In this document: piece by piece, positions 28,701 to 64,000 of the stretch
How positions within the stretch are numbered: position 1 is the first letter of the stretch
Layout: the number at the start of each line of letters is the position of its first letter
Source: Squalus acanthias
Taxonomy: Eukaryota
Reading direction: 5' to 3'
Length of the DNA stretch: 64,000 nt
NCBI GenBank assembly: GCA_030390025.1
Contig: CM059450.1
Location: 16,678,001 to 16,742,000 of the forward strand
Notes under the pieces: generated by a model
Database searches by the model: none
What the model was told of the DNA's origin: nothing
The model's input: only the letters and a program-made list of their open reading frames with translations
Translations under genes and position numbers: made by a program

Positions 28701-31151
28701 CACAGCCCTGCAAGTTTTTTCCCTCAAGTGCCTATCCAGTCTTTCCTTGAAAACATTGAGTCTGCCCACTTCCACCAGCAACGAATTCCAGGTCCTCACC
28801 ACTCGCTGCGTAAAAAAGTTTTTCCTCACATCCCCCCTGTATCTCTTGCCCAAAACCTTAAATCTGTGTCCCCTAGTCCTTGTACCATCAACTAGTGGGA
28901 ACAGCCTTTCCCCGTCTAGCCTATCCAGACTCGTCATAATCTTGTACACCTCTATCAAATCACCCCATAACCTCCTTTGCTCTAATGAAAACAAATCCAG
29001 CTTCTCCAACAAGTTCTTGTAGCTAAGATCCCCCATCCCCGGAACCATTCTGGTAAATCTCCTCTGCACCCTCTCAAGGGCCTTCGCATTCTTCCTAAAG
29101 TGTGGTGACCAGAACTGGACACAGTACTCCAGTTGTGGCCTAACCAGCACTTTATAAAGGTTCAGCATAACTTCTCTACTTTTGTACTCAATGCCTCTAT
29201 TTATGAAGCCCAAGATCCCATATGCTTTGTTAACCACTCTCTCAATATGTCCCACCACCTGCAGGGACCTCTGCACATTAACTCCTAGGTCCCTCTGTCC
29301 CTGCACACTCTTTAAAACTGTGCCATTAAGTGTATTTTGCCTCTCCCTGTTCCTTCTGCCAAAATGTATCACCTCACATTTCTCTGTATTAAATTCCATC
29401 TGCCACTTGTCTGCCCATTCTGCTAGCCTTTCTATGTCCTGTTGCAGTCAATTGGTATCATCACTGTTTGCCACACCCCCAAGTTTGGTGTCATCGGCAA
29501 ATTTAGAAATTCTACTCTGTATTCCAATATCCAGGTCATTTATATTTATATCAGAAAAAGCAGTGGCCCCAGCACTGACCCTTGGGGAACACCACTATCT
29601 ACCATCCTCCAGTCTGAAAACCAGCCATTTACCACAACTTGCTGTTTTCTATCCTTAAGCCAATTCCTTATCCAAGCTACCACTGACCCACCTATTCCAT
29701 GAGCCTCAATTTTGTTAATCAGCCATTTATGTGGTACTTTGTCTAACGCCTTCCAATAATCCATGTAGACAACATCCATTGCATTCCCTTCATCAATCCT
29801 CTGTTACTTCAAAAAATTCAATTAGATTAGTCAAACACGATCTGCCTTTTACAAATCCGTGTTGGCTCTCCTTAATTAGCTTAAACCTCTCCAAGTACCC
29901 GTTAATTTTTTCCTTGATTATTGTTTCTAAAATTTTACCCATCACTGATGTTAAACTGACCGGCCTGTAGTTACTAGGATTGTCCTTGCACCCTTTCTTG
30001 AACAATGGTGTCACATTTGCCACTTTCCAATCCTCAGACACCTCCCCCGCATCTAGGGAAGATTGGAAAATTATGGCAAGCCCTTCCGCTATCTGCTCCC
30101 CCAATTCCCATAGCAACCTGGGATGCAAGCCATCTGGACCAGGTGACTTATCCACTCTAAGCATACCCAGCCTTTTTAGTACATCCTGTCTATCAATTTT
30201 CACCCCTTCCATTGCTTCTACCTTTTCCACTTCTACCGATATTTTGTCAGCATCCACCTCCTTAGTAAACAGGGATACAAAGTACTCATTGAGATTAGAT
30301 AGATAAGAATGGAGCCAGACCAGAGCACCCAGCTGGACGACAGTGGCTAGGCATTAGAGAATGATGGAGCGGTCAACCATGTCAAAGGCTGCAGACAAGT
30401 CAAGAAGGACCAGGAGGGATAGTTTACCTTTATCACAGTCACAAAGTCACACTATCACAGTATTATTCTCTAATATATAATTTAAAGTCAAAAAGGTCAA
30501 AATCCTTTCATTCAGCAACAAAATGCTTGGGTAAATAATAGAATAAAATCCGATTAGGACAGGCCCCCCCCCCCAAAGCAACTCTCTTGCAAGTACCAGC
30601 CTGATGACAACATCCCCAGCTGATGTTTACATCTTTGCACAGTGGGCGGGACAGCGTTCTGATGGACAGCCGCCTCCGCCAATAGAGCCGCGGGCTGGTC
30701 TGAAGGCGGCCAGTCAGGAGTCGAGAGAGAGAGTGAGGGGCGGGTCCGAGGATTGATTGACGGGGACGAGATCCTGCCAGCGGGAGCCGCAGCCAGCTCG
30801 CCGCCCCGGGGGGCCAAACCGGGTTAAAATGGGGGTGGGCGGCGGGCGCAGGATTGAAACCCTTCCCCCCTCCCCGCCCGTCGATAAGTCAGCGGGCTAG
30901 ACCCTTCTGGAATTCAACGCCAATTTAAGCGGCATACGTTCGCCAAAAGGGAAAAGGAGGGGCGTTAAGGAGGCAGGCCCCGGGGTATTTGAACAGTGAG
31001 CAGGCCGCAGGCGCTGTGCGAGATTTGCTGGCGGTGACAATCCAGTTGTGGTGACCGGGGTAGGTGGGGGGGAAGGGAGCCCAGCTTCTTACCTCTCGCC
31101 GTTGTTAATGACGACGCCGCCGCTCTGCGAGTGATTCCTGTTGAGCGCCAT
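1667..31151 (-). CDS. wbp2nl: WBP2 N-terminal-like / PAWP (WBP2 family), 8 coding exons, 296 aa: join(31093-31151,13894-14002,9903-10038,8148-8240,6162-6431,4426-4524,3560-3636,1667-1714)
   Basis: All introns are GT-AG with compatible phases (59+109+136+93+270+99+77+48=891 nt). The protein [34 protein letters not shown]...[79 protein letters not shown] has a GRAM domain followed by a Pro-rich tail with PPxY motifs. Residues such as [12 protein letters not shown] and GQASFKLVF favour the NL paralogue over WBP2. Confidence 0.9.
1783..2690 (-). mobile_element. CR1 LINE 3' fragment
   Basis: [15 protein letters not shown]...RTRGHRFK...[14 protein letters not shown]. Confidence 0.9.
3560..3636 (-). 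CDS. wbp2nl: wbp2nl coding exon 7
   Basis: tttcag|GT GGA GCT...CCA ATG|GTAAG; encodes [26 protein letters not shown], the conserved WBP2-family block. Confidence 0.92.
4426..4524 (-). CDS. wbp2nl: wbp2nl coding exon 6 (PPxY motif)
   Basis: tttcag|GA GCC TAT...CCT G|GTAGG; encodes [33 protein letters not shown]. Confidence 0.88.
6162..6431 (-). CDS. wbp2nl: wbp2nl coding exon 5 (Pro/Gly/Tyr-rich, NGPYAA repeats)
   Basis: gttag|CC TCC AGG...CCA G|GTAAAG; encodes [14 protein letters not shown]...GTPAPQP. Confidence 0.9.
7068..7585 (-). mobile_element. CR1 LINE 3' fragment
   Basis: [11 protein letters not shown]...[11 protein letters not shown] and a (CTTATGTT) tail. Confidence 0.85.
8148..8240 (-). 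CDS. wbp2nl: wbp2nl coding exon 4
   Basis: ttccag|GT GGT TGG...CAA G|GTAAG; encodes [31 protein letters not shown]. Confidence 0.93.
9903..10038 (-). CDS. wbp2nl: wbp2nl coding exon 3
   Basis: tttcag|ATG ATC...GGC G|GTATG; encodes [45 protein letters not shown]. Confidence 0.93.
10575..11125 (-). mobile_element. CR1 LINE 3' fragment
   Basis: [15 protein letters not shown]...TRGHRFK. Confidence 0.85.
12412..13700 (-). mobile_element. CR1 LINE, RT domain to 3' end
   Basis: KSCLT.L...[13 protein letters not shown]...[11 protein letters not shown]...[14 protein letters not shown]. Confidence 0.92.
13894..14002 (-). CDS. wbp2nl: wbp2nl coding exon 2
   Basis: ttttgcag|C TTT TTA...TAC AGG|GTAAG; encodes [36 protein letters not shown]. 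Confidence 0.93.
14290..14640 (+). mobile_element. old, diverged tRNA-derived SINE family (AmnSINE2-like by recollection); relatives at ~10225, 10480, 11130, 22070, 26570, 40660, 47340, 59850 and 62850
   Basis: Shared blocks AAATCAGCCA.GGTTCC, CCAGTGRCCCCTGCTGGAAAGTG and GAAGAATGGCCACTTGGGC recur across copies. Confidence 0.55.
15509..15631 (+). repeat. 5' LTR (~120 bp), followed by a tRNA-Ser-like PBS (TGGCGATAAAGATGCGATT, 15634-15652)
   Basis: Direct repeat of 20721-20818 plus 21241-21270. Confidence 0.85.
17208..17931. mobile_element. non-autonomous PHIS/Harbinger-type MITE inserted in Gypsy pol
   Basis: TIR GGCCCAAAAATT...AATTTTTGGGCC with 3-bp TSD ATT; removing it restores [17 protein letters not shown]. 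Confidence 0.85.
20721..21270 (+). repeat. 3' LTR interrupted by a CR1 3' fragment (~20819-21240); PPT AAGGAGGGAGAAG immediately upstream
   Basis: LTR sequence stops at a (TA)n tract and resumes after the CR1 ttatgttct tail. Confidence 0.85.
21634..22065 (+). mobile_element. tRNA-derived Deu-domain SINE (SacSINE1-like)
   Basis: A/B boxes, the Deu-domain core GGAGGTGCCGTCTTTCGGATGAGACGTTAAACCGAGG, and an L2-like 3' tail GCTATATAAATGCAAG. Confidence 0.8.
23060..25580. mobile_element. two older CR1 fragments (23060-23950 +, interrupted by a PLE end; 24435-25580 -)
   Basis: Degenerate ORF2 motifs ([21 protein letters not shown]). Confidence 0.75.
27480..30446 (-). mobile_element. L2 LINE 3' region split by a younger CR1 insertion (28601-30290)
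   Basis: L2 motifs ([36 protein letters not shown]) stop at 28600 and resume near 30295; collinear with the unsplit copy at 35610-37095. Confidence 0.85.
28601..30290 (-). mobile_element. CR1 LINE, 1.7 kb 3' fragment with RT
   Basis: [11 protein letters not shown]...[10 protein letters not shown]...[14 protein letters not shown]...[10 protein letters not shown]; 3' part closely matches 1783-2690. Confidence 0.92.
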
Positions 31152-45925: not shown

Positions 45926-46037
45926 TTTGGGGGTGGGAGAAGGCCTTAACCTGCAAGGATGAGCCCTGTCTGTTCCAAGTGAGCTCTGTTCTGGCTGGAG
46001 TAGGCAGTCAGAATGGCTCGAATTACACTTTGCAAAG

Positions 46038-46290: not shown

Positions 46291-47134
46291 ACAGACAATT
46301 TGTTTACTCACCCCCACTTAAAAGAGTACACTTTGCAAAATAACTGATTAGGTAGGCAGGGCAGATATAATTACACATTCCAGAGAAACTGCTGGGTGTC
46401 TGTGTGGTCTTCCAAGGGGACCAATCAGCAATCAGGACTTGTCATCCAAGGCGACCAATCAGAGCTTTTGGTGTTGCGAATAAACACAGTCTCATCTTTA
46501 TGAGTTAATAAATAAGGCATCTGAAAAAGACTAGTTAAGGTTTGGGGTGAGAACTTTAAGTGGTTGTGACACTGAAACTATCCTAAACATTAAACTCTCT
46601 CCCTCCCCCTTCCAACATATTATCGGGGTTCAGTTGCTGGGGATTTTCTATATTTTTTTTAAATTTCACTTTTCTGCGATAAGCAGTCGTCCCTCCCCCC
46701 GCGTAGATTTCTTGAGGAGTGGCCAGTGCCGTGGATATTTCGCTTGCAGACCGCGAGGAAACAAATACATTTGGGATTTTTTTTCTGAAACGCGAAATAT
46801 CGCCCTCCCACTCACATGAATAATGGAAATGAAAAGATCTGAATCAAAATTTCGCGTTGGAAAGTTTGCGGACGTCTCCTTGAACCTGCTGCCGGGTTTT
46901 ATCTCGGTCGAAGAAAAAAAGTTGTGAAACGTTTTTTGAGGACTTTCGATTGGCAGTTTCAGTGTGACTTTCCTCACTCCGGCTCTTCCCGGGAGTGAAA
47001 CTGACATTCGCTCTCCAGGCACAAGGATAGCAACATTACAAAGAATCGATCCTTTCATCCGGAATCCTTGCTCTTTTTCTAAGTGTCTTTTTTTTTTGGC
47101 TCCGTAAACCGCGGTGAACTTTGTTGCATTACAG

Positions 47135-47163
47135 ATGGATCCAGGTTGCAGGCGAGCCTTCAG
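47135..47163 (+). CDS. B7-like leader exon 1 (MDPGCRRAF)
   Basis: ATG...TTC AG|GTAAG, phase 2. An acceptor-like ttgcattacag directly precedes the ATG, so an upstream non-coding exon is possible. Confidence 0.6.
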
Positions 47164-50100
47164 GTAAGATATTCAAATCAGAGCCTCATCAGAGATTTGT
47201 TACTGAGCGTGCTGGCCACTCCGCTCCCCGCGAACTTCATGGTAAAACTGAGAGTAAAGAGAGTGAAAACAAACATTTTGAAGTTACAGTATGCTCCGTT
47301 ATTACTTTCATAATTTCGCCCCTCCCCCTCACTGCGTCGGGAACACTGGTTTTACCTTACAGTGCTTCACAGTGCCTATTCTTCATCTTGATCAATCTAG
47401 ACCGTGAGTGCTAGCAGGCCCTTCCACCGAGGGGGCATCACACCTGGGCACGATGCTGCTCCCACCGAATGTCCACACAGGAATCTCTTGATTATTCCCT
47501 TCCTTCGTCCAATGATTCTGAAGCCAATTGAATTGTCCACATAACTGGGCATATATCAAGGTATGTGTACTGTTCTAAATGGCTCAGTTTCACAACATCC
47601 AGTCCATTTACCAGTTGGTCTTCAGAGGGCTCGTCCTGTTCATATTTTTTTGTGAACGGCTTTTAAGTTTTGTTAATAGACTTTGTGAAGTTAGTTAGTT
47701 CGACGGCACCTCCCAAACCCGTGACCACGACTACCTAGGTGGACAAGGGCAGCAGGCGCAGGGGAACACCACCACCTCCAAGTTCCCCTCCGAGTCGTAC
47801 ACCATCCTGACTTGGAAATACATCGCCGTTCCTTCATCGTCGCGGGGTCAAAATCTGGAACTCCCTCCCTAACAGCACTGTGGGAGTACCTTCACCACAT
47901 GGACTGCAGCGGTTCAAGAAGGTGGCTCACCACCAACGTTCCCGATAAGCTATCTGGCCGCGTAGCTCTCTACTGGGTCCTGCACAGGCCGCTTACTGCC
48001 TTTTGAGCGGGAGATTTTGCACATGCGCAAAATTTTGAATGGGCTGTGCAGCCCCTGAAAAGGACCACGCATCCCCAAAAAACTAGGGGGAACATTGCTC
48101 ACCACCACCTTCGCAAGGGCAGTTAGGGATGGGCATTGCCAATGACGCCCACATCCCGTGAATGAATAAAAAAGAAAACATGATCCCATTTTAATTTCCA
48201 ATCGTTAGGGATTGAGTCATTTGCCCAGAGCTACCAGGCACTGATTGGGAAGCATAGTCTGGGTGCAGAGGGTGTGAGGATGGGGCTGTATTGTGCTCAA
48301 TTAATTTCACCTACTTGTGAACCTGTGGTCCCTTTAGTTCTGTATCACTCTTTATTGAGGGTGCTCCGATCTTTTATCGAAATGTCCCATGATGTTTTAA
48401 ATATTCAAATTTGTTCACCACAGCTCCTCGTAGCCAAAGTGAACCGAAAAGTCAGTGTATTATGGTTGTGATACTGTTTTGTTAAATAATAAATCAGCGC
48501 GTTTGATTAGTTATACATTACTCATTGAAAATCCTGGTAATACACAACAGGTATATCAGCATCTCTAAAGAGAAAGGACAAGTTAAGGTTTCAGGTGGAG
48601 CCCCTTCGAAAGAGCCAGAGACTCTGAGCGAGCTTATTTTTTTACGCAGCGAGTTGTGATGATCTGGAACGCGCTGCCTGAAAGGGCGGTGGAAGCAGAT
48701 TCAACAGTAACTTTCAAAAGGGAATTGGATAAATACTTGAAGGGGAGAAAATTGCAGGGCTACGGGGAAAGAGCAGGGGAGCGGGACTAATTGACGAGCT
48801 CTCTCAAAGAGCCGGCATAGAGATGATGGATCCAACGGCCTCTTTCTGTGCTGTGTGATTCTGTGATCAGAACTGGAAGTAAAGCAAGCTCTTTTAATGA
48901 AACTGAACAAGACAAAATAGGGTGAGGGTTGGGGGTGGAACTGAGATAATGGTTAAAGACTCAAGCAAGTTTTCTAGGAAAGATAGGAAGAGGTGAACAG
49001 TGGTGGGTGCTCTACACAGATCACCGCAGTAAGTCACGGAACGACATTAAAATTATAAAAGGCGATGACAATAGTTAATGAGGAAAACGGCAATAAAAGC
49101 GAACCATGCTGGGAGCGTACAGCAGACCAACGCGACAACCGAAAGACAAAGGCAGGCCATTGCCGGATGAGACCCCCTCACCCACCAGTGCTGTGCTGTG
49201 ATGAAGTCCCCTCCCCCAGATGCTGATAGAATTGCTGTGCATCCCCCACAGCCCCTGCCACTATGAAGGTGGGAGACATAGATGAGTTCTGAACACAACC
49301 CTTCTGGGGAAGGGTCTGCACCCAGGGTGGTCGGTCTGTCTTCCCTCTTTTCAGGTAAAGGAACAGTTACTGTGTGTTATAACAACAGAAAACGCTGGAA
49401 AAACTCAGCAGGCCAGGCAACATCCGTGGAGAGAGAAAGAGAGTTAACGTTTCAGGTCGAAACCCTTCGTCGGAACTGAGAGAGCAAGAAATAAACAGAT
49501 AAAAATGCAAGGGGGAGGCTGGGGGGAGGAATAAAAGAACAAAAGGGATGGTCTTTAGTGAGTAGAGACATTGAGAGATGCTCAAGGCAAGACGAGATGG
49601 TAATGGGACAGGTTGAGAAACAAAAGGTAAGGTGTGAAATGCTGGCAGAATCAGAGACAGCTGCCGTGGGGGGAGAGAGAGGAAAAAAAGGAAAAAGGCA
49701 CGGACCACAAGAGTGGATAAAATGTATACATATGTGGTAGGGGCCGGGGTTATGATCTGAAATTGTTGAACTCGATATTGAGTCCGGAAGGCTGTAAAGT
49801 GCCTAAACGGAAGATGAGGTGCTGTTCCTGGAGCTTACGCTGCGCTTCCGTGGAACAATGCAAGAGGCTGAGGACGGTGAGGTCTGAGTGAGCGTGGAGG
49901 GGTGAATTAAAATGACAAGCGACCGGAAGCTCGGGGTCACCCTTCCGGACTGAACGGAGGTGTTCCGCAAAGCGGTCACCCAATCTGCGTTTGGTCTCCC
50001 CAATGTAGAGGAGACCACATGTTCCTAGTGTTGTTTGTTTTCATTTCAGGGTTCCAGCATCTGAAGTTTCCTCATTAGCTTTTTTTTTGAGCCTTTTGGT

Positions 50101-53100
50101 TTTTTTTTAATGTCTTTTCATGCTTTTGGGGCACAGTATTAATTAACAATAATATCCTTCCCTTTCAAGTAAAGGGTAGGCATCGAGAAGATGTTTCCAC
50201 TTGTGGGGGAGACCAAAACTAGGGGTCATAAGTATAAGATAGTCACTAACAAATCCAATAAGGAACTCAGGAGAAACTTCTTTACCCAGAGAGTGGTGAG
50301 AATGTGGAACTCGATACCACAAGGAGTGGTTGAAGCGAATGGCATTGAAGGGGACTCTAGATAAACACGTGAGGGAGAAAGGAATATAAGGAAATGTTGA
50401 TTGAGTTAGATGAAGAAAGGTGGGAGGAGGCTCGTGTGGCCCAATCGGGCCGAATGGTCTGCTTCTGTGCTGTAAAATACTATAAGTTTTATGTTGTCTC
50501 CCCAAATTAAAGGGTACCAACTTCATTTTTTTAAATGCATTTGCAAGCAAATGAGAAAGTGTTTGTGAAAGATACAGTGACAACTTAAAGAGGAAGGAAA
50601 GTCTAGCGAACTAACTTTAGCATCTGAGTGTTCGGCAGCTGAGGCCAGCTACCTAAGCACAGACTGTGGATTGAATTTGGGAAATTTCTGGCCTGCATGA
50701 GTCATAATCACACCAGGTAGTGCATTCGCTCATTATGCATCAACGTAAAAAAAAAAAAAATCCTTCGTGACTGAAAGGACATTGAAACCTAAGCAGCTAC
50801 AGTCTGTGGAGGGCAAATTCCGTGCCTGACAACTGCTGTGTTAAGGGAGCCCTTCATTCTGCACTTCAAAGGTGGAATGCTGACGTCCCCTCAGGGTCAT
50901 GTTGCCTTACTCAAAACCTCCAACAACTGCAGAAAAAACCCCAGCACTGCTGTTAATGTGACTGCTCTTTAGGAAGGCGGGGGAATTCTGAAGTGAGTAG
51001 GAAGAGCTGTGAGAAGAGAGATAAGGAACATTGGGACAAGGAACTTATTTACTTTTCATTCCTAGTGACCATTTGAAAACCCCCCCCCTGTAATTAATGA
51101 CTTTTTCTGTTCCCACTCAGCAGGTTTTTAAGTAGGGGAATTTCCCGTGGTCCGTCGAATGAAAAGAAATATTCCCATTTTTGTTTGGCAGATTGGTGGC
51201 AGGAATTTCATTACTAGAGACTCTGGTGTTGCTTTTCTTAGAATCACAGAATAATGCAGCACAGAAGGAGGCCATTTGGCCCATTGAGTCTGCGCCAGCT
51301 CTTTTGCAGAGCGATCCAGTCAGTCCAATGTCCCCGCTCGGTCCCCATATCCCTGAATTTTTTTCTCCTTCAAGTATTTATCCAATTCCCTTTTGAAAGT
51401 TACTATTGAATCTCTTTCCACCACTCTATCAGGCAGTGCATTCCAGATCCTAACCACTCGTTGCATAAAAAAGTTTTTCCTCATGTCGCCTCTGGTTCTT
51501 TTGCCAATCAGCTTAAATCTGTGCCCTCTGGTTATCGACTCTTCAGCCATTGGAAACAGTTTCTCTTTTTCTTTACTCTATCAGTGTCAGCCGTGGCTCA
51601 GTTGGTAGCACTCTCGCCTGTGAGTCAGAAGGTTGTGGGTTCAAGTCCCACTCCTGAGACTTGAGCACATAAAATCCAGGCTGACACTCCAGTGCAGTAC
51701 TGAGGGAGTGCCGCACTGTCGGAGGTGCCGTCTTTCGGATGAGACGTTAAACCGAGGCCCCGTCTGGAGGGGAACTTGAAGGTGGTGGTGCTCCCATGCG
51801 TCTGCTGCCCTTGTCCTTCTAGGTGGAAGAGGTAATGATACTGCTCTCTTACTCTCTGCTCCCACTTCCACCGCCTCACTGTTCGCAATACTACCCTTCA
51901 CTCTCCTACAATCAAGAGGAACTGCTTTACCTTTTTCATTAAAAATAGCTATCAGAGGAAATATTCCCGCTGTGTTTACGATATCTGTGTAAAGGGAATT
52001 TACGCTGCGCTTCCGATGAAGTTACGGCGGTAAAAAGTCCAAGGAAATTTAGGGCCCTTTTGTGTGGTGACCACGCCAGTACGACACTAAATCTTAGAGA
52101 AAAATACTTCATTTTTGTCACAGTTGCATTGTCAATAACATTTCAAAAGTTTCACCTTTTTGAAATAACAATTCATTTTACTTTGCCTTAGGAGAACAAG
52201 ACTGGTGCCTGGGCTGTTTGAATGTGGATTGTTTTTGTGTTGGGGAACAGGTAAATATAAAGTTCCATTTCTCAGCGACTGACTCCAAGGTCCTTCTAAT
52301 TGTCTGTATTTCATGGCTGATCATTGGGTGTGATTCACTTTTTAATCTTTTTGATCTTCTGCAACATAAGCCACCCTTGTCCAGGCTGGCAGTAGACAAT
52401 CTGTCCCAGGCCTCCATCAATAGGATTCAATTACCAGATGGTAGGAAGTGTGCCTGGGTAGGCTCTCAAACCTGAATCTATTTCCTTTCTCCCTTTTCTT
52501 CTGCGGATGTGACAAAGCAACAGTTTCAGATCTCAACCAAATGGGGGGGGGCTGGGAGGGAATCACTATTGAATCACTGCTGGGAGATATGCATCGGCCT
52601 GTGTTTGGAGCTAACTATACAATATTACAGCCAGACCTGGGATGGCCTTCACAATAGATGAGGGATACTGTGGGGCTGAATACTTTGTCCTGTGATCATT
52701 TCAGGATACAGAACGGCTAGTCTGAGTCCCATTTCTCTCAGCGGGGAATGATAACTGCTTTGAAAGAAATACTTGCATTTCTATAGCGCCTTTCACAACC
52801 CTCGGACGTCCCAATGTGTTTTACAGCCAATGATGTACTTTTTGAATCGTAGTCACTGTTGGAATATAGGAAACGCAGCAGCCAATTTGCGTACAGCAAG
52901 CTCCCACGAACAGCAATGTGATAATCACCAGATAATGTTTTAGTGATGTTGATTGAGGGATAAATATTGGCCAGGACTCCCCTGCTCCTCTTCAAAATAG
53001 CGCCATGGGATCATTTCCGTCCACCTGAGAGAGCAAACGGGGCCTCAGTTTAACATCTCATCCGAAAGACTGCACCTCGACAGTGCAGCACTCCCTCAGT

Positions 53101-56100
53101 ACTGCACTGGAGTGTCAGCCTAGATTTTTGTGCTCAAGTGTCTGGAGTGGGACTTAGAACCCAGAACCTTCTGTCTCAGGAGGTGAGGGTGCTACCCACT
53201 GAGCCAAAGCTGACATGTACCACACAGTCAAGATGCGTATGAATATCTCCGGGTTGTGGAGGAACCCACTGGCCTACAGTTTGTACACCGATCTTAGTGG
53301 CGCTGTCAGCCCAGCGGAATTAACACATAACCCTTAATGACGTAAGGAGAGAGAAAGCTGTTGAAGGAAGTACAAAATGAGACAAAGGCTATTTTGGTCT
53401 TTCTATCTCTATCACTGATCGCACAATTTACCCAACCCAAATTCTGCACTCTCCTGAAGGAGGCAAACTTAGGTAAACCTTGGAGGACGCATAGCTCTGA
53501 AATTTCTTCCAACCACAAAGGGAACCCTCCCTTCCCCAGCTGCATTCCAAAGTACCAGCAGGTCATGAACCATCCCATTGCATTGATTATTAGCTGTGAC
53601 TGCTGTTCTTTTCCTTAGAATCTTAAAAACCTTACGGTGATATATATTCAGGTAATTTTTAAAGAAGTTACTCAACATAGCATTAACTGCTTTCGGTGGA
53701 AGTGTGTTCTGTTGATTGGTCTTTAGATGTCGGCTTGCACAGCTGATGGCAACATCAAGATAAATTCACCAGTTTAAAAAAAAAAAAATTGGTGAAACTT
53801 AAGAACTCTTTTTTTTTAACCTGGTCGTTCTGACTTCTTGGGGGGCCACTAAACACGTTTTCCGGCAGAAGCAGTATGTTTTGGTAGTGATGTGGCTCAG
53901 TGGGCAGCACCCTCGCCTCTGAGTCTAGAAGGTTGAGGGTTCACGTCCCACTCCAGGGACTTGAGCACAAAATTCTAGGCTGACACTCCAGTGCAGTACT
54001 GAGGGAGTGCTGCACTGTCGGAGGTGCCGTCTTTTGGATGAGACGTTAAACCGAGGCTCCCTCTGCCCTCAGGCGGACGTAAAATATCCCATGGCGCTAT
54101 TTTGAAGAAGATCCGGGGATTTATCTCTGATGTTCTGACCAACATTTATCCCCACACCAACATCGCTAAAACATCATCACATTGCTGTTTGTGGGAGCTT
54201 GCTGTGCGCAAATTGGCTGCCGCGTTTCCTACCTTACAACAGTGACCACTCTTCAATACAAAAAAAATGACTTCATTGGCTGTAAAGTGCTTTGGGCGTC
54301 CTGAGGTTGTGAAAGACACAAATTAATTGCAAATCCTTTCTTCTATCTTTCATTACTCAACATCATCAGGCACACATGCAGCTATTCTTTCTGTGGGCAT
54401 GACATCACTACCTCAGTTGGCCAAAACGGCACGACCAGATTGCACATGTATGGAATAGTGAGTTCCATAGTGCAGCCAGTTTGTAGAGGGAGAGGTCTCA
54501 GTTAGTTAGCTTGCTTGCCCAAGGCCCAGGCTGCAGCATTAACGTAGCTAATCTCTCCCACTCCCTCTCTCTTCCTCTTTCCCTGCCTTTCACTTTCTTT
54601 GTTGTAGTACAGGCAGCCAAGGAATATAAGAACATAAGAAATAAGAGCAGGAGTAGGCCATTTGGCCCTTCGAGCCTGCTTCGCCATTCAATAAGATCAT
54701 GGCTGATCTTCGACCTCAACTCCATCTTCCTGCACTATCCCTCATATCCCTTGATTCCCTTAATATCCAAAAATCTATCGATCTCTGTCTTGAATATACT
54801 CAGCGACTGAGCCTCCACAGCCCTCTGGGGTAGAGAATTCCAAAGATTCACCACCCTCTGAGTGAAGAAATTTCTCCTCATCTCAGTCCTAAATGGCCGA
54901 CCCCTTATTCTGAGACTGTGACCCCTGGTTCTAGACTCCCCAGCCAGGGGAAACATCCTCCCAGCATCTACCCTGTCAAGCCCTGTAAGAATTGTATATA
55001 TTTCAATGAGATCACCTCTCATTCTTCTAAACTCTAGGGAATATAGTCCTAGTCTCCTCAATCTCTCATCAATAAATAAATAAATATATATATAACCATT
55101 AATAGATGTGGTGATATACTGTGATTAAAGTGAAGAGGTCACTGAACAATACATCCAGGCCCTTTTTGATTCTGGTAGCGGATAGGCCATTCAGCCCCCT
55201 GCTCTACCATTCCATTAGATCATTGCTGATCTGTACCTCAATTCTATTTACCCACCTTTGACCCATATCCCTTGATACCCTTACTTAATAAAGATCTGTC
55301 GATCTCAATCTTGAAATTTTCAATTGACTCAGCATCCACAATCTTTTCATAATATCATATGATACTGCACAGAGGAGGACATTTGGCCCATCGTGCCTGT
55401 GCCGGCTCTTTGGTAGAGCTATCCGATTAGTCCCACCCCCTGCTCTTTCCCCATAGCCCTGTAAATTGTTTCCCTTCAAGTATTTATCTAATTCTCTTCT
55501 GAAAGCTACTATTGAATCTGCTTCCTTCAGGCAGTGCATTCCAGATCACACCAACTCACTGTAAAAAAAAAAAATATGTTTCCTCATGTCGCCTCTGGTT
55601 CTTTTGCCATCCACCTTAAATCTGTGTCCTCTGGTTACCGACTCTCCTGCCACTGGAAACAGTTTCTCCTTATTTACTGTATCAAAATCGTTCATGATTT
55701 TGAACAGCTGTATCAAATCTCCTCTTAACCTTCTCTGCTCCAAGGAGAACAACCTCAGCTTCGCCAGTCTCTCCACTTAACAAAAAATACAAAAGCAAAA
55801 TACTGCGGATGCTGGAAATCTGAAATAAAAACACAAAATGCTGGAAATGCTCAGCAGGTCAGGCAGCATCTGTGGAGCGAGAAACAGAGTTAACGTTTCA
55901 GGTCGACGACCCTTCGTCAGAACTGGGAAAAAGCTGGAGATGGAACAGGTTTTTAAGCAAGTGCAGGGGCAGGGAAAGGGGGGGGGAGGGGAGGAAAGAA
56001 CAAAAGGGAAGGTCTGTGATAGGATGGAAGGCAGGAGAGATTAAGAGACATTAAGAGATGGTGCAAGGCAAAAGGAGATGGTAATGGGACAAGTTAAGAA

Positions 56101-59100
56101 ACAAAAGATGGCTCTAGATGGAAGGCATACTTCTCTGTTAAAATTCATGCGTCCGTCCATTTCACCAGTCTGTCTGTGACCTCATGAAGTCTGTTACTGT
56201 CCTCATCGTTCACTACATTTCCGAGTTTCAGATCATCTGCAAACTGAACTCTCAGGTGTTCTTTATTTTCTTTCCCCCTAGTTTCTTTGTCTACCCTCAC
56301 GGTTCCAGGAATTGTCGGGGAAAGTGCCCTCCTGTCTTGTGTAAATAGATCTGTGGGAAAAAGTGCTGACGATGGGATACGTGTGTACTGGCAGACGGCT
56401 GACCAGTACGTACACGCCTTTTACTCGGGGCAAGAACAAGCTAACTGGAGTTACGGCGACAGAGCAAAACTTTTTACAGAAGAATTTAAAGGCGGCAACT
56501 TTTCCCTCCTCTTGTCTGACCTCCGAATGAGTGACGATGCTGAGTATACCTGCCTCATTCAGGTGAAACAGTCGACTTTGCAGTATGATGTGGTTCTATC
56601 TGTTCTAGTAACATTGCAAGTAGCAGGTAAAGTTTTCCTTTCTCTGTCCCCTTATTTTTAAATGTTGCTGTTGTAACAGGGGTGGGGACAAGTGGATAGA
56701 GAGGTTTACTCTGTTTTATGGAAGAGTGACCTTACTTAGTGTCAGCTGAGGCTCAATTGGGAGCACTCTCGCCTCACCACCACCTTCTCAAGGGCAATCA
56801 GGGATGGGCAATAAATGCTGGCCTTGCCAGTGACGCCAACATCCCATTTAAAAAAAAAAAGAAGGTTGTGGGGTTCAAGTCCCTCTCCAGAGACTTGAAC
56901 ACAACAAAAACTAGGCTGACACTCCAGGGCAGTACTGAGGGAATGCTGCACTGTCGGAGGTGCCGTCTTTCGGATGAGACGTTAAACCGAAGCCCCGTCT
57001 GCCCCCTCAGGTGGACGTAAAAGATCCCATGATGCTATTTCGAAGAAGAACAGGGGAGTTATCCCTGGTGTCCTGGCCAATATTTATCCCTCAATCGACA
57101 TCACTGAAAACAGATTATCTGGTGATTATCACATTGTTGTTTGTGGGAGCTTGCTGTGCGCAAATTGGCTGCCGTGTTTCCCACATTACAACAGTGACGA
57201 CACTTCAAAAGTACCTCATTGGCTGTAAAGCGCTTTGGGATGTCCTGAATTTGTGAAAGGCGCTATATAAATGCAAGTCTTTTTTTCTTTTCTTGAGGTC
57301 TTCTACATTCGGGTTAATAGTTGCAACTGACTAGCTCCCTGATAGCTTAGGCATTATAATGCACAGCACACTGTGGTACTGAGATCAGGCAGTGCAGCAC
57401 AGAACTCCAGGTTTGAATACTGGCCCATGATGTGTTAAATAGGAACAGAAGTAGGGCCATACAGCACCTCGAGCAAATGTTTCTCTTAATATTCATTCTC
57501 AGGATGTGGGCGTTGCTGATATTTATTGCCCATCCCAAGTTGCCCATTTGACGCAACTTGTGGTAAAGTGCACTTAAACTTCAAATAGATGTTCTAATAA
57601 CCTCCTCTGTGAATCAAGTGTCTCCTAACTTCCCCCAGTGTTCATCTAGTGATAATCCTGTGCCCGCCTGGTAATAATGTCTCTTTTGAAAGTTACTATT
57701 GAATCTGGTTCCACCACCCTTTCAGGCAGCGCATTCCAAATCACAACAAATCGGTGCGTTAAAAAAAAAATCTTTTCTCATGTCTCCTCTGGTTCTTTTT
57801 GCCTATCACCTTAAATCTGTGTCCTCTGGTTACCGACCCTTCTGCCACTGGAAACAGTTTCTCCTTCTTTACTCTATCAAAACCGTTTGTGATTTTGAAC
57901 ACCTCTATCAAATCTCCTCTTAACCTTCTCTGCTCTAAGGAGAACAACCCCAGCTTCTCCAGTCTCACCACGTAACTGAAGTCCCTCATCCCTGGAACCA
58001 TTCTAGTAAATCTCCTCTGCACCCTCTCTAAGGCCTTCACATCCTTCCTAAATTGTGGGGCCCAGAATTGAACACAATACTCCAGCTGAGGCCTAACCAG
58101 TGTTTTATAAAGGTTTAGCATTTGTACTCTTTTCCTCTATTAATAAAGCTTAATATCTCTGTTGTAGGAAATGCAGCAGCCAATTTGTGTACAGCAAGAT
58201 CCCATAAACAGCAATGAGATGATGACCAGATAATCTGTTTTAGTGACGTTTGTTGAAGGATAAATATTGGCTCCAGGACACCAGGGATAACTCCCCTGCT
58301 TTTTTTACGTCCACCTGAGAGGGTAGACGTGGCCTTGGTTTAACGTCTCATCCAAAAGACAGCACCTCTGACGGTGCAGCACTCCCTCAGTACTTCATTG
58401 AAGTGTTAGCCTGGATTTTGTGGTCAAGTCCCTGGAGTGGGACTTGAACCCACAACCTTCTGACTCGGGGCTGACACTGGATGAGGCCCATGGCCCCATT
58501 GGCAGTTTGCTATGTTCCCTTCAGTTTGTCAGGTCAGGCCCGTCAGCTGTGGCTCAGTGCTAGAACTCTCCCTCTGAGTGCTTTCCATTGACTTCATTCC
58601 CTTCTATTGCCCATTTTATGCCGGTGACAGTTTCTACCGACTTTCTCTCACTTCTGACCTGTGATGATAAGACCTCACTAGCGTCAGGTACAAGACATGA
58701 AGTGGACCAATCCACTACATCGGGGCAACTTCTCTGGTGAGCATATTATAGCTTAGGATCTGTCTGGTTTGAATTAATAAATGGATAGCGCAAAAAGAAA
58801 ATGAATAATTGGAAAACCTGGAGCATCAGCTCTGGACAGCACTCAGCGCTTGAGTTTGGAGCTTGGGGATGGAGATCCAGGGCCAGGATGTCTATCCCGA
58901 GCTCAGCTGACAACATGTGCAATGTGTTAAATTCAATTAGGGGGATAACTTCCTATTCTGTCCGTTGGGAGTGACACAATTACCGTCTTAGAGTTAAAAA
59001 AAAAATACATTCATAGGATGTGGGCATTGCTGGCAAGGCCAGCATTTATTGCCCAGCCCGAATTGCCCTTAACTGAGTGGGTTGCTTTGCCATTTCAGAG

Positions 59101-61722
59101 GGCAGTTAAGAGTCAACCATGTTGGTGTGGTTCTGGAGTTACATATAGGCCAGACCAGGTAAGGACGGCAGATTTCCTTCCCTAAAGGACATTAGTGAAC
59201 CAGATGGGTTTTTACAACAACCCAGTAGTTTCATGGTCAATACTGATACTAGCTTTTTATTCCAGATTTATTTATTAACTGAATTTAAATTCCCCCAGCT
59301 GTCGTGGTGGGATTTGAACTGATGTCTCTGGATAATGAATCCAAGCCTCTGGATTACTCGTCCAGTAACATAACCACTATGCAACCGTTCCCTAAGTAAG
59401 GGTTGAAGCTGACCATTGAACTCTGCAACTAACCTCTGGTCTTTATTTTCCATTCGGTTGGGAATTTTAGCCCGCTACACCAAGCCAGTATTGACTGCAA
59501 CACCACAGCCGAGAGACCTGGATCGTGGAGACTTTGTGACACTGATATGCTCCTCATGGGGTGGCTATCCAGAACCAATTGTACACTGGACTGATAGTAT
59601 TCCGAACATCCTTAATGAAAACAGTACAGTCGACAATCACATCAATTGTTCCAGAAAGGAACTGTGCAACATTACCTCCATCCTTCGGATCCAAGGAACA
59701 TTACACTCCATTACTTGCTCCATATACAATCCCAAGCTCCGGGAGAATAAAACTGCAACATTATTTTGGAGTGAGTAAAATTAAATAATACATCCTTCCC
59801 CTTGGTGGGGGGGGCGGGGGGACCAAGTAGAGGCGGCCAGCTTTTCATAATTTGGAGTACCTGATATATTGAGATTCCGTTTCACAGCCAATGGCAACCC
59901 AACTGTACTGTTCTTCACATGAGCCTGGCTACAGCAAGTGTCAATATTATTTGAGCTTGGAGGGACATCAGAGGGAAATCTGATCCTGTATTCATAGAAT
60001 CATAGAAATTTATGGCACAGAAGGAGGCCATTCGGCCCATCGTGTCTGTGCTGGCCAAAAAAGAGCTATCCCAGCCTAATCCCACTTTCCAGCTCTTGGT
60101 CCGTAGCCCTGTAGGTTACCGCACTTCCAAAAAAATTATTCATTGTACAAAGCACTTTGAGACATTTTGACAGCGTGATATAAATGCAGGTATTATTGAT
60201 TTACTTATTTGCAGTTTAGCAGCCCAGCTCGTAAGGCCAGAATTTACTGTTGCCGGGGAACGGTTAGACTTGCCCTTACCCGTTTAATTCCCATGAGACT
60301 TTGCGCTGCAAGTTGCTGTAACTGAGAAGGAAACAGCGCGGCGCCCTCTACGGGCCACCTGGGACAGATGCGAATGGGGCAAGCAACTGTGTATCTCCTT
60401 AACCAATCAGACTGAAGTATTGTGAAATGAACAGTGCGGATTCTGAACCAGAATTGTCCGTTAGAATAGTGAATGCAATGTCGGATCAGGTACAGGAAGC
60501 GGAATAAATGAGGGAAGGAAAGATGGGATTAAACGAGAGAGAAAAAAAGAGACAGAAAGAAAAGGTCAACAAATATGTAATTTTAATTCTTATTTAAAAA
60601 ACAATTAAAAGCTGAAGGAGTGAGACTCCATACTTGTAATAGTTAATTTTCAGTGCCGGAGAGGTTGTTTGGCAGTAATTAAGCCTGATCATGCCATTAA
60701 AACATAGAAACATAGAAGATAGGAGCAGGAGTAGGCCATTTGGCCCCTCGAACCTGTTCCGCCATTTAATGAGATCATGGCTGATCATCCAAATTCAGTA
60801 CCCTGTCCCTGCCTTCTCCCCATATCCCTTGATCCCTTTAGCCTTAAGAAATATATCTATCTCCTTCTTGAATATATTTAATGAATCGGCCTCAACTGCC
60901 TTCTGTGGTAGAGAATTCCACAGGATCACCACTCTCTGGGTGAAGAAATTCCTCCTCATCTCAGTCCTAAATGGCTTATCCCTTATCCTTAGACTGTGAC
61001 CCCTGGTTCTGGACTCCCCCGCCATCGGGAACATCCTTCCTGCATCTAGTCTGTCTAGTCCTGTTAGAATTTTATAGGGGTACTTAGACTGAAATGGACA
61101 AGCCCTAAATTTCTGCGGTGAGTTTAGTTTGTATCTAACATGCAAGTACAGGAACTTCACGCCATTCAACGCATTTGAATGGGGAGCCAGACAGCGAGAT
61201 GCCGTTTATGCGAAGCTAACGGCGCCGCACCTCAGACAGTAACTTCTGGGTTTTCGTGTTTAACCGAGCATCTGCCCTCGCCTCAAGTTGCTGTGTGATT
61301 GGCGCGTAAATAACAATGAGTGCCGTTAGCTTCACTGTTATTTTGACTGTAAATTCCGGCCCATAATTTACTAGTCACGGCTGCTGTGCATTCTTGTTGC
61401 ATTAGTCTTTGTAGCATTAAAAGCAATCTAGAATCACAAGTGTAAAACCTTCTGTACTACTCACTGCATACCCTGTATCTCCAAACATTGTGCACATAAT
61501 GGGATAAGAAAATTAATTGATTTCTGTTTGCAATTCTTGCGTAGATATCCCACTAATGTTTCTGTATTTGGACAGATTTCTCGGAAAAGAAGGAGATCGT
61601 TGACCCCAGCTGTGGCAAACATCATGGATGGATTGCGCCAATAGTCTTCGTTGCACTAGTCGGTGTGGTTTCAGTGGCAATTTACATTTCCTGGAAGTGT
61701 TTCCCCAGGTCTTTACTGAGAG
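47135..61722 (+). CDS. B7-family Ig-superfamily co-signalling ligand (ICOSLG/CD86/CD276-like); join(47135-47163,52192-52250,56282-56626,59471-59770,61576-61722,...); last exon unresolved
   Basis: Phase-compatible GT-AG exons encode the leader MDPGCRRAFRRTRLVPGLFECGLFLCWGT, an IgV domain (LSC...RVYWQ...GNFSLLLSDLRMSDDAEYTC...VTLQVAA), a B7-type IgC domain (YTKP...TLICSSWGGYPEPIVHW...ITC.IYN) and a TM helix. Confidence 0.85.
47700..48175 (+). mobile_element. 3' end of another CR1-group LINE family (also 25615-26120, 56775-56860, 59000-59390)
   Basis: Recurrent WNSLP-coding end followed by GGCTCACCACCACCTTCTCAAGGGCA..GGGATGGGCAATAAATGC and an A-rich tail. Confidence 0.6.
47934..48097. mobile_element. 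small hAT MITE (same family as 34209-34348) inside a LINE 3' end
   Basis: TIR CAACGTTCCC/GGGAACATTG with perfect 8-bp TSD CTCACCAC. Confidence 0.88.
49380..50075 (-). mobile_element. Penelope-like element 3' portion (GIY-YIG endonuclease end and 3' terminus) with a short inverted terminal piece
   Basis: YIGETKRRLGDRFAEHLRSV...PVACHFN...EQHLIFRLGTLQPSGLNIEF*. Confidence 0.9.
52192..52250 (+). CDS. B7-like leader exon 2 (RTRLVPGLFECGLFLCWGT)
   Basis: ttcattttactttgccttag|G...ACA G|GTAAAT; phase 2 in and phase 1 out, bridging exon 1 to the IgV exon exactly. Confidence 0.7.
52760..54345. mobile_element. two Deu-domain SINE copies (52760-53215 -, 53890-54345 +); partial copy at 51583-51765
   Basis: Same consensus as 21634-22065. 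Confidence 0.8.
54625..55780 (-). mobile_element. cluster of CR1 3' fragments (others at 48635-48865, 50170-50480, 51240-51580, 57680-58150, 59995-60130, 63755-63975)
   Basis: Repeated CR1 ORF2 C-terminal motifs and 3'UTR. Confidence 0.85.
55790..56125 (-). mobile_element. Penelope-like element 3' terminus
   Basis: Homologous to 49380-49640; related pieces at 23540-23670, 33305-33380, 35170-35610, 48530-48620 and 43858-44053. Confidence 0.8.
55888..55924 (-). ncRNA. minimal type-I hammerhead ribozyme motif within a Penelope terminus
   Basis: AGUU-CUGACGA-AGGGUCGUCGACCU-GAAACGUU-AACU: intact core, helix II, ACGU palindrome in place of helix III, and AGUU/AACU helix I. Confidence 0.65.
56282..56626 (+). 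CDS. B7-like IgV exon
   Basis: Strong polypyrimidine acceptor and 345 nt phase 1-1 exon with canonical B-strand Cys, C-strand Trp and DxAxYxC. Confidence 0.93.
56738..58478. mobile_element. two Deu-domain SINE copies (56738-57290 +, 58150-58478 -)
   Basis: Same consensus as 21634-22065. Confidence 0.8.
59471..59770 (+). CDS. B7-like IgC (CD80-like C-set) exon
   Basis: ttttag|CC CGC TAC...TGG A|GTGAGT; 300 nt phase 1-1 exon with the CSSxGGYPEP.V.W motif. Confidence 0.93.
60234..61362. mobile_element. MITE (Harbinger-like TIRs) with nested CR1 fragment 60702-61076
   Basis: Ends are AGGCCAGAATTTAC and GTAAATTCCGGCCC; flanks GTA/ATA. Confidence 0.7.
61576..61722 (+). CDS. B7-like stalk/transmembrane exon
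   Basis: ggacag|AT TTC...AGA G|GTAAGT; encodes NFSEKKEIVDPSCGKHHGWIAPIVFVALVGVVSVAIYISWKCFPRSLLR. Confidence 0.88.
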
Positions 61723-62227
61723 GTAAGTGTCTTATCTCCTTTAGTTTACTGAACTGACACTTAAATACCAGACTATGTGGTTCAGCGGGGTTAGACAACT
61801 CTACATTGACTCTGGTGAACTGGGTGTGCAGTCTGCCCAGACTGAGGGGTGGATAGTTTCCATTCTGCTCATTGTAAAGACCTTTAGGCAAACTATTATC
61901 AAACAGTATCAACCCAGTTCGATTGTATACAAGTAGGAAGTGCAAATGCTCTTTAAATTCAGCACCTATTAGTAATCCGAGAGGTCACCGGGTGGTGGAC
62001 GTAAGAAGTGAAAATGGTGTGGTAGAGGGTGTGTTCTGAGGTTGATTTATGGCAAATGTGTGGGCTAGAGAAGAGGGAGAATTACTGTGCACCTAATCCA
62101 CACTCAGTATAACCTGGGAGATGATGCTGACATTGGAGACTAAATGTGGAGCAGTGTCCCATTTCTTAAACATTCCTCACATTAGTGTGTAAAAGCGTCC
62201 ACTTTTACCCCTCACCTCACCATTACC

Positions 62228-62794
62228 TTGAGGTACCACCGACGCTGCCTCCGCAAGATCCTGCAAATCCATTGGCAGGATAGGCGCACCAACGTCGGTG
62301 TTCTCGCTCAGGCCAGCATCGAAGCTTTGACCACGCTCGATCAGCTCCGATGGACGGGCCACATCGTCTGCATGCCCGATACGAGACTCCCAAAACAAGC
62401 GCTCTACTCGGAGCTCCGACACGGCAAGAGAGCCCCAGGTGGGCAGAGGAAGCGCTTCAAACACACCCTCAAAGCCTCCTTGGAAAAAGTGCAACATCCC
62501 CACCGACACCTGGGAATCCCTGGCCCAAGACCGCACAAAGTGGAGGAGAAGCATCCGGGAAGGCGCCGAACACCTCGAGTCTCTTCGCCGGGAGCAAGCG
62601 GAAGCCAAGCGCAAACAGCGGAAGGAGCGCACGTCAACCCAAGCACCCCACCCACCCGCCCCTTCAACCACCGTCTGCCCCACCTGTGACAGAGACTGCA
62701 GGTCCCGCATTGGACTCATCAGTCACCTGAAAACTCATTTTTAATGTGGAAGCAAGTCATCCTCGGTTCCGAGGGACTGCCTAAGAAGAAGAAG
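62228..62794 (+). mobile_element. RTE-clade LINE 3' end
   Basis: CLRKIL.I.WQD...QLRWTGH...RLPKQALYSEL..GKRAPGGQRKRFK, a C-terminal C2H2 (CPTC...HLKTH) and a (GAA)n tail. Confidence 0.88.
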
Positions 62795-63396
62795 ACCATG
62801 CAGAGGAGTCTCTCCTTCAGGACCTCTTTTTAAAGTGTTCTGCTATTCGGGATCCTGTTTCTTTTTTCCCGGTTTGGACAAGGTTCCACAGGTGCTGGCT
62901 TGCCTCTCATTCCTGCCCCAAGTGTCCATTCATAACATGCAAGCTATTCTTTCATCTGGAAATCGCAGCCCAGTGTGATTCTGTCCTCAACTGATGTTCT
63001 TGCGTGCACTGCCCAGCAGAGGTCACTAGATAGCAGTCAGAGGCAAGAAGGCTGGCTGGCCGCCCCTCTCCCTTGCAAAGGAGCACTGAGGCTGGTTCTA
63101 GTGCCTGAAATGCTGTATTAGCATGCAACCTCCTTTCTCCTCTGGTTCACAACAACACGTCTCGAGTAACCATGAGACTCTAGTGGAGTATACGGAACAG
63201 ACTTTATTGATCCACAGTAAAGGTGATCGGTCTTTAACTGTATACAGCGAGTAACTTTTTCGGTTTGTGTATCTTTTGAGTACACTCTGAGATACTGTTG
63301 AAAACTGTGATCCTTTATACACCATATTTTGACTGCATCAAAGGAAAATGTCATAGATAAGACTGTATGACGTATCTATTCCCAAACCCTTTGCAG

Positions 63397-63423
63397 ACAG
63401 ACTATTCATGTAAACCGTTGTAG
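63397..63423 (+). CDS. possible terminal cytoplasmic exon of the B7-like gene (DRLFM* or DYSCKPL*)
   Basis: ttcccaaaccctttgcag|acag| offers two nearby acceptors, each giving a short phase-1 tail; not distinguishable from chance without RNA data. Confidence 0.25.
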   Translation, partial: TDYSCKPL

Positions 63424-64000
63424 TTTGTTTACTTCAGAATGACTTCCCTTAAACAAGACCTCCTCAAATGGATTTGCTACCCCCATTTTATTACCCTAAC
63501 ACTAAGCTACGATTTATTACCTATACTTATTTCCTTACACAAGCACTTTACATATCAGAAGACAAGCAAAGCAATCCTTTTACAACACTTCTGGAAAGCC
63601 TGTTGCTTTAAGATACAAAGAAGTTCGACTGTTAACCCTTAACTCCACAAGATGTCCAACATACATCTTTCTAGGATGCCCAGCAAAGAGATGAACCACC
63701 ACCTTAAGCTCTTGTTAATTTGGATGGTTCAATTTCAAATGACAGTGCATTCATCTCTGTATATTTCCTCTTGTGGGGTGTCCAAAATTAGGGGGCCATA
63801 AATATAAGATAGTCACTAATAAATCCAATAGGGAATTCAGGAGAAACTTCTTTACCCAGAGAGTGGTGAGGATGTGGAACTCGCTACCACAGGGAGTGGT
63901 TGAGGCGAATAGCATAGATGCATTTAAGGGGGAAGCTAGATAAGCACATGAGAAAGTATTAGAAGGATATGTTGTCAGCTGTTACTCAGTATGGGCAATA

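What the first reader, a model, noticed from the sequence alone, without database searches (positions are those of the whole stretch)
47135..61722. Unassigned B7-family co-signalling gene head-to-head with wbp2nl
Seen: a leader-IgV-IgC-TM gene with 8 N-glycosylation sequons, whose start codon is 16 kb from that of wbp2nl, transcribed divergently. Recalled knowledge: a leader split into a phase-2 then a phase-1 exon is the arrangement of mammalian CD86 (which also starts MDPxC) and ICOSLG. The domains read most like ICOSLG (VYWQ, G.FSL.L, VTL.VAA, CxSxxGYPxP.V.W). In human, WBP2NL neighbours are NAGA, SEPTIN3 and TNFRSF13C, with no B7 gene. Inference: this may be a cartilaginous-fish B7 paralogue lost from mammals, or an ancestral-position ICOSL/CD80/86 gene, which would inform on early T-cell co-stimulation.
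Basis: partly seen in the sequence, partly recalled or inferred. Interest (0 to 1): 0.7.

Follow-up and report, generated by a model that had tools for sequence, protein, structure and literature searches.

The report
Shark ICOS-ligand-like gene beside wbp2nl
This is a real, spliced shark immune-surface gene of the ICOS-ligand branch of the B7 family, found here only in sharks and rays and one of four such genes in this genome, and it likely signals to T cells through the shark's CD28/CTLA4-like receptors rather than being the CD276 that databases often call it.

Summary
Observation confirmed: five exons (split leader, IgV, IgC, transmembrane), 8 sequons, ATG 15,984 bp from the wbp2nl ATG. A contig joins IgV-IgC-TM, and two tail exons lie beyond the window. 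The gene sits between wbp2nl and a septin/CENPM pair. Orthologues are already predicted in 15 sharks and rays under the automatic names 'CD276-like' or 'ICOS ligand-like'. Trees put them in their own clade (100/99) inside an ICOSL-like group, apart from this shark's true CD276. Three more genes of this genome fall in that group. The sister group is unresolved: 1:1 ICOSL orthology is neither shown nor rejected (AU p 0.07, 0.14), and markers of the human ICOSLG region lie on other scaffolds. No tetrapod CD80/86 was in the trees. The receptor-binding C strand (RVYWQ) is invariant, and the genome holds an MYPPPY receptor, but binding is untested. Verdict: a new member of a known family, of moderate interest.

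The parts
46834..47163 (+). Exon 1: 5' UTR (at least from 46834) and first coding piece 47135-47163, MDPGCRRAF, phase-2 donor
   Evidence: (contig X1-1 covers 46834-47164)
52192..52250 (+). Exon 2: rest of the leader, phase-1 donor
   Evidence: (77-90% identity to shark orthologue leaders)
56282..56626 (+). Exon 3: IgV domain with invariant IRVYWQ C strand; predicted receptor-binding domain
59471..59770 (+). Exon 4: IgC domain with CSSxGGYP motif and an extra cysteine pair (C204/C210)
61576..61722 (+). Exon 5: stalk, transmembrane helix and start of the tail
61723..64000 (+). Start of intron 5. The gene goes on beyond the window: exon 6 at G000:C27:16745739-16745805 (short tail with stop, 313-aa form) and exon 7 from G000:C27:16757515 (alternative tail, in frame when exon 6 is skipped, 326-aa form)
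   Evidence: orthologue tails; splicing to these exons not shown
31093..31151 (-). First coding exon of the neighbour wbp2nl (name from sequence recall, a weak GRAM match in a later exon, and neighbours)
46825..46834 (+). GGAANNGAAA match (PU.1/IRF-type consensus, recalled) at the 5' end of the longest contig; weak hint only
   Evidence: 5 matches in the window against 3.78 expected

Best explanation
The locus is an intact, spliced B7-family gene of the ICOS-ligand-like branch, found here only in sharks and rays, and its product likely acts on antigen-presenting cells as a co-signalling ligand for the shark's CD28/CTLA4-like receptors. Shown: gene structure, splicing of IgV-IgC-TM, orthologues across sharks and rays, separation from CD276, and position between wbp2nl and septin/CENPM. 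Inferred: a glycosylated type I membrane protein presents the front sheet of its IgV domain (invariant R33, Y35, Q37, Q93, K95) to the proline-rich FG loop of a CD28-family receptor on a lymphocyte, as ICOS-L does with ICOS. Also inferred: two alternative tails tune trafficking or signalling, and the gene arose by duplication of an ICOSL/CD80-type ancestor with one copy settling beside wbp2nl. Whether the signal is activating or inhibitory is unknown.
For: Clade of 13 shark and ray proteins plus the window, FastTree support 1.0; 100/99, 100/99 and 100/100 in three IQ-TREE runs of 58, 37 and 30 rows. It nests in an ICOSL-like group (100/95, 97/97, 91/87) that excludes this genome's CD276 (C19, which groups with snake CD276 at 100/99 to 100/100). 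The next named hits after the shark and ray proteins are bird and caecilian proteins, nearly all named ICOS ligand or ICOS ligand-like, then guinea-pig ICOSL. RVYWQ occurs in 44 of 141 V+C sequences, mainly this clade and bird and caecilian ICOSL, and not in CD276. Of the 13 ICOS-L interface residues listed in PMC7545189 (passages), Y53, Q55, V62 and L114 are identical in the window protein and F122 is Y (alignment, read by eye). A CD28/CTLA4-type V exon with MYPPPY exists at G000:C3:111.88 Mb. An extra C-domain cysteine pair is present in 13 of 141 sequences: 12 of this clade and the C7 paralogue, in no bony vertebrate. TRAPPC10, PWP2 and RRP1 family matches lie on the small scaffolds C3444, C573 and C59, not on C27.
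Against: Binding was not tested. Per V+C unit, the family profile scores ICOS-L 109.8 and CD276 108.9 bits, so similarity alone does not separate them, and the window's single exons score CD276 higher. AU rejects grouping with CD276 only at p 0.046. Support for the ICOSL-like group falls to 91/87 in the smallest tree. The ICOS-specific C'D loop contacts (I67, Q69, N75) are not kept, and this loop is about 3 residues shorter than in most other B7s. The hits that fill the trees were collected with a profile of this clade, and no tetrapod CD80/86 was among the rows named. Tissue of expression is unknown. Whether the orthologues also lie beside wbp2nl could not be checked.
Confidence: 0.6

Rival explanations
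1. It is the 1:1 shark orthologue of tetrapod ICOSLG, sitting at an ancestral or moved position.
For: ICOSL proteins are the nearest named non-shark hits. The window protein's highest identities outside its own clade are to caecilian and bird ICOSL (37% and 34%). RVYWQ and GNFSLLL are shared. AU does not reject the grouping: p 0.070 and 0.137.
Against: None of four trees joins the two. Bony-vertebrate ICOSL-like proteins group together without the shark genes at 91/90 and 91/88. C2295b fits ICOSL at least as well (80/79; AU p 0.205). Rhea ICOSL searched against this genome ranks the window's V exon 12th of 48 matches and does not list its C exon, while the C exons of C2295b and C7 are listed (127 of 265 candidates scored). 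Markers of the human ICOSLG region (neighbourhood recalled) are not on C27.
Confidence: 0.2
2. It is a shark co-orthologue of CD80/CD86, the main CD28/CTLA4 ligands.
For: The C domain matches the CD80-like C2-set model (7.5e-7). B7-1 ranks 2nd and 3rd in the fold search (low-confidence model). Bony-fish proteins named 'CD80' or 'CD80-like' by RefSeq fall in the same large group. Sharks have no clear ICOS (PMC11599192, passages).
Against: The family profile scores CD80 80.3 and CD86 68.3 bits against ICOS-L 109.8. An earlier scan note reports a CD80/86-like gene elsewhere in this genome (not verified here).
Confidence: 0.12
3. It is a CD276-like or orphan B7 molecule that does not bind CD28-family receptors.
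For: Most RefSeq orthologues are named 'CD276 antigen-like'. CD276 is the best PDB sequence hit for each exon. The C'D loop differs from ICOS-L.
Against: This genome's CD276 orthologue is a different gene on C19. CD276 lacks the R-x-Y-W-Q strand. The front-sheet residues are invariant in 13 of 13 aligned sequences.
Confidence: 0.08

Closest known systems
RefSeq models in sharks and rays named 'CD276 antigen-like' or 'ICOS ligand-like' (e.g. Heterodontus francisci XP_067875583.1, P0001; P0002-P0015)
   Same: Orthologues: IgV 60-78% identical, same split-leader sequence, IRVYWQ strand, TM and both tail types.
   Different: Automatic names only, and they conflict. The Heterodontus form has a duplicated IgV; the two carpet-shark proteins lack the complete extra cysteine pair.
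Tetrapod ICOS ligand (ICOSLG, B7-H2, CD275; PDB 6x4g)
   Same: V+C B7 layout, C-strand Y and Q, GNFSL strand, long FG loop, CxSxxGYPxP; same large clade; 29-37% identity over V+C.
   Different: Not sister in any tree; shorter C'D loop without the ICOS-specific contacts; extra C-domain cysteine pair; lies beside wbp2nl/septin/CENPM, not PWP2/TRAPPC10 (human neighbourhood recalled); sharks lack a clear ICOS (PMC11599192).
CD276 (B7-H3)
   Same: Equal profile score per V+C unit; source of the common database name.
   Different: The shark's CD276 is a separate gene on C19 (28% identity to the window) that groups with tetrapod CD276.
CD80/CD86 (B7-1/B7-2)
   Same: CD80-like C2-set match; ligands of MYPPPY receptors, one of which exists in this genome.
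   Different: Lower profile scores; orthology could not be tested in a tree.

Membership tests
B7 family | Type I membrane protein with leader, one IgV, one IgC, TM and short tail, domains on separate phase-1 exons | tested here: met
B7 family | Sequence and fold closest to B7/butyrophilin ectodomains | tested here: met
   ICOS-L, CD276, CD80 on top; model pLDDT 53.6, low
B7 family | Binds a CD28-family receptor and co-signals | not testable with these tools
   needs a binding assay; no complex prediction was obtained
ICOSL-like subfamily (broad) | Groups with tetrapod ICOSL apart from CD276, PD-L1 and butyrophilins | tested here: met
   100/95, 97/97, 91/87; PD-L1 and butyrophilin rows only; CD80/86 absent from the rows
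ICOSLG 1:1 orthologue | Sister to tetrapod ICOSL | tested here: inconclusive
   not in any best tree; AU p 0.070 and 0.137; three other shark lineages give p 0.205, 0.064, 0.043
ICOSLG 1:1 orthologue | Linked to TRAPPC10/PWP2/GATD3 (human neighbourhood, recalled) | tested here: not met
   TRAPPC10 on C3444, PWP2 on C573, RRP1 on C59; GATD3-type search empty; the window is on C27
ICOSLG 1:1 orthologue | ICOS-binding residues of PMC7545189 | tested here: inconclusive
   4 of 13 identical, 1 similar; C'D loop contacts not kept
CD276 (B7-H3) | Groups with tetrapod CD276 | tested here: not met
   the C19 gene does so instead; AU p 0.046 for forcing the window clade there
CD80/CD86 | Groups with tetrapod CD80/CD86 | not tested
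   no tetrapod CD80/86 sequence came back from the searches; profile scores only

The most novel reading that the evidence does not exclude
Cartilaginous fish carry their own radiation of ICOSL-type ligands: at least four genes at three loci in this shark (C27, C7 and two on C2295). It would match the chondrichthyan-only trio of CD28/CTLA4-like receptors described in PMC11599192. This gene would be a ligand lineage with an extra C-domain disulfide that serves one of those receptors, so ICOSL-type ligands would predate ICOS and co-stimulation would have been wired separately in sharks and in bony vertebrates.
Probability: 0.35. Interest if true: 0.62.

Novelty: new member of a known kind. Interest (0 to 1): 0.42.

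Why it matters
PMC11599192 (passages and Discussion read) finds two or three CD28/CTLA4-related receptors per chondrichthyan genome that cannot be matched to CD28, CTLA4 or ICOS, and leaves their ligands open. This gene and its three paralogues give a concrete ligand panel for that question. The finding also shows that the database label 'CD276-like' is misleading for this lineage, which matters to anyone reading shark single-cell data. The gene itself is an ordinary B7 in design and is already predicted in public annotations.

Tried and rejected
AlphaFold of the Cetorhinus orthologue was low-confidence (pLDDT 53.6); its fold search cannot separate ICOS-L, B7-1 and CD276 (E 1.7e-8 to 3.2e-8). 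The ESM Atlas gave generic B7 clusters. No listed run was on record as RNA. Laying four runs on exon 6 gave one unspliced 162-base contig and nothing in the other three, so tail usage is open. Shared bidirectional promoter: rejected (16 kb apart, separate CpG patches). NF-kB consensus: 6 matches against 13 expected, none near the start. PU.1/IRF consensus: not above chance. A homologue search with the C7 paralogue's C exon found nothing. No B7 domain was found in all 78.6 kb of C573 or in the first 80 of 289 kb of C3444. The V exon at C3:86.06 Mb showed no C exon within about 67 kb and was left out of the trees, as were the V exons of C3542 and C10. Only one receptor of the CD28/CTLA4 cluster was found within 100 kb each side. 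Of 191 proteins held, 66 without an adjacent V+C pair were dropped before the first tree; the IQ-TREE runs used hand-picked subsets of 58, 37 and 30 of the 141 rows. My first label for C2295 ('DRD3, CD80/86 region') was dropped: the exon reads as D2-type by recall, and Pfam confirms only a 7TM receptor. Sister status with the C7 gene: 58/75 and AU p 0.364 with the cysteines masked, so not shown. Literature: ten searches listed no paper on this gene; 'wbp2nl'+'ICOSL' and 'ICOS ligand'+'SEPT3' gave 0. Flajnik 2012 and Collins 2005 on B7 evolution were not held and Hansen 2009 was not looked up; they or their supplements may already list a shark ICOSL-like gene. The elephant-shark paper PMC3964593 had no hits in its text or in its one held supplement. 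PMC13262535 and PMC12151841: passages only, nothing on this gene.

Full report
Observation. The gene is there as described. Five exons with GT-AG ends (47135-47163, 52192-52250, 56282-56626, 59471-59770, 61576-61722) give an open frame of 293 codons with 8 N-glycosylation sequons. The second leader exon was the best of 19 candidates in the 9 kb intron and is confirmed by orthologous proteins. Contigs from public runs of the same or a very close species join IgV, IgC and TM exactly at these ends (X1-4 all three, X4-29 IgC to TM; four samples of one study, and the tool only guesses that they are RNA). Another contig covers 46834-47164, so the first exon has a 5' UTR of at least 300 bases. The wbp2nl ATG is at 31151, 15,984 bp away on the other strand; each start has its own CpG-rich patch.

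The gene continues beyond the window. A 67-base exon at C27:16745739 gives a 313-residue form ending DPAV. Skipping it reads into an exon at C27:16757515 and gives a 326-residue form. Both tail types occur among the orthologue models. Which form is used here was not shown.

Neighbourhood. On C27 the order is wbp2nl (-), this gene (+), a V-J-type single-Ig gene (-), a septin (-, 16.87 Mb) and CENPM (+, 17.01 Mb). A NAGA/GLA-family gene lies at 21.9 Mb. By recall, human 22q13 has CENPM, SEPT3 and WBP2NL side by side with no B7 gene, so this gene sits inside an otherwise conserved block. Family matches for TRAPPC10, PWP2 and RRP1, recalled as neighbours of human ICOSLG, lie on the small scaffolds C3444, C573 and C59. 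No B7 domain was found on C573 or the first 80 kb of C3444, but these scaffolds end too soon to exclude a B7 gene next to them.

Relatives. The IgV exon is single-copy: the other own-genome matches are at most 44% identical (99 matches listed). Database searches return orthologues from 15 named sharks and rays, called 'CD276 antigen-like', 'ICOS ligand-like', 'butyrophilin-like' or uncharacterised. The next hits among the 51 listed are bird, caecilian and guinea-pig proteins, mostly named ICOS ligand. The wide profile search listed the best 150 of 4377 hits; 30 proteins were looked up for names. No chimaera or bony-vertebrate protein fell inside the window's clade in the tree of 141 V+C rows; this is limited by the cut at 150.

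Trees. In three IQ-TREE runs (58, 37 and 30 rows) the window's clade has 100/99 to 100/100 support. It lies in a larger ICOSL-like group (100/95, 97/97, 91/87) together with tetrapod ICOSL, bony-fish and amphibian 'ICOSL-like/CD80-like/CD276-like' models, and three more genes of this genome: two on C2295 near a D2-type dopamine receptor, and one on C7 near a connexin (neighbour names by recall; families). This genome's CD276 is on C19 and groups with snake CD276. The base of the ICOSL-like group is unresolved. In two trees the bony-vertebrate members group together without any shark gene (91/90, 91/88); in the third, C2295b is a weak sister of tetrapod ICOSL (80/79). AU tests: window clade with ICOSL p 0.070 and 0.137; C2295b 0.205, C7 0.064, C2295a clade 0.043, window clade with CD276 0.046, window clade with all bony-vertebrate members 0.272. 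Rhea ICOSL searched against this genome ranks the window's V exon 12th of 48. No tetrapod CD80 or CD86 was in any tree, which is the main gap.

Features. The C strand IRVYWQ is invariant in 13 of 13 aligned sequences, as are Q93, K95 and the G-strand VVL, while the BC and C'D loops vary. In the ICOS/ICOS-L structure the receptor's proline-rich FG loop packs on strands C and C' (PMC7545189, passages). Of the 13 ligand residues listed there, 4 are identical in the window protein (Y53, Q55, V62, L114) and F122 is Y; Y51 is R, as in bird and caecilian ICOSL. The C'D loop that gives ICOS specificity is shorter and not conserved. This fits a ligand that keeps the general CD28-family docking surface without ICOS-specific contacts. 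An extra cysteine pair in the IgC domain occurs in 13 of 141 rows: 12 of the 14 in this clade and the C7 paralogue. It suggests, but does not show, that these two genes are sisters.

Receptor side. The genome has a V exon with MYPPPY at C3:111.88 Mb whose best PDB matches include CTLA-4, then CD28 and ICOS. PMC11599192 (passages; Discussion) reports that chondrichthyans have two or three such receptors that form their own cluster, with no ICOS orthologue. Binding between this ligand and those receptors is inferred, not tested.

Verdict. A real B7 gene of the ICOSL-like branch, not CD276, most likely one of several cartilaginous-fish paralogues (0.6) rather than the 1:1 ICOSL (0.2) or CD80/86 (0.12). 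It is already predicted in RefSeq under automatic names. Ten paper searches listed no description of it, but three older B7-evolution papers were not seen. New member of a known kind; interest 0.42.

Noticed in passing
L013:6948-7307 (-) and L012:7006-7242 (-); G000:C27 about 16.778-16.788 Mb: A gene with one germline-joined V-J-type Ig exon (FGNGTKL motif; V-set 4.8e-15; best PDB matches are antibody V domains) and a TM exon lies between the B7 gene and the septin. It resembles the CD8/PRARP class of joined-VJ receptors named in PMC11599192.
   Followed up: partly
G000:C7:94.98-95.02 Mb (L077, L032, L080): A B7 V+C+TM gene near a connexin shares the extra C-domain cysteine pair but has lost the tryptophan of the C strand (RVTMQ) and part of the E strand.
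   Followed up: partly
G000:C2295:82-137 kb (L030, L031): Two tandem ICOSL-like genes on a GC-rich unplaced scaffold with a D2-type dopamine receptor, an IIGP GTPase and an Ly6-like exon; rival candidates for ICOSL or CD80/86. Two ICOSL-like types of Rhinatrema also share one contig length.
   Followed up: partly
G000:C5:145.14-145.38 Mb and C5:138.44-138.55 Mb: B7 genes lie next to CD28H-like V exons at two places: four receptor-like exons near 145.2-145.4 Mb and three near 138.5 Mb.
   Followed up: no
exon 6 acceptor, G000:C27:16745736-16745739: Tandem acceptor (TAG CAG); orthologue isoforms differ by one alanine at this junction in Heterodontus and in rays.
   Followed up: no
G000:C3542:203-452 kb: A cluster of V exons that score best against bird ICOSL V; no matching C exon within 20 kb of the one copy examined.
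   Followed up: partly
P0001 (Heterodontus orthologue): The IgV domain is duplicated letter for letter in some isoforms: a recent exon duplication or an assembly artefact.
   Followed up: no
window 44400-45950: A long purine-rich tandem repeat lies 1.2-2.7 kb upstream of the ATG.
   Followed up: no
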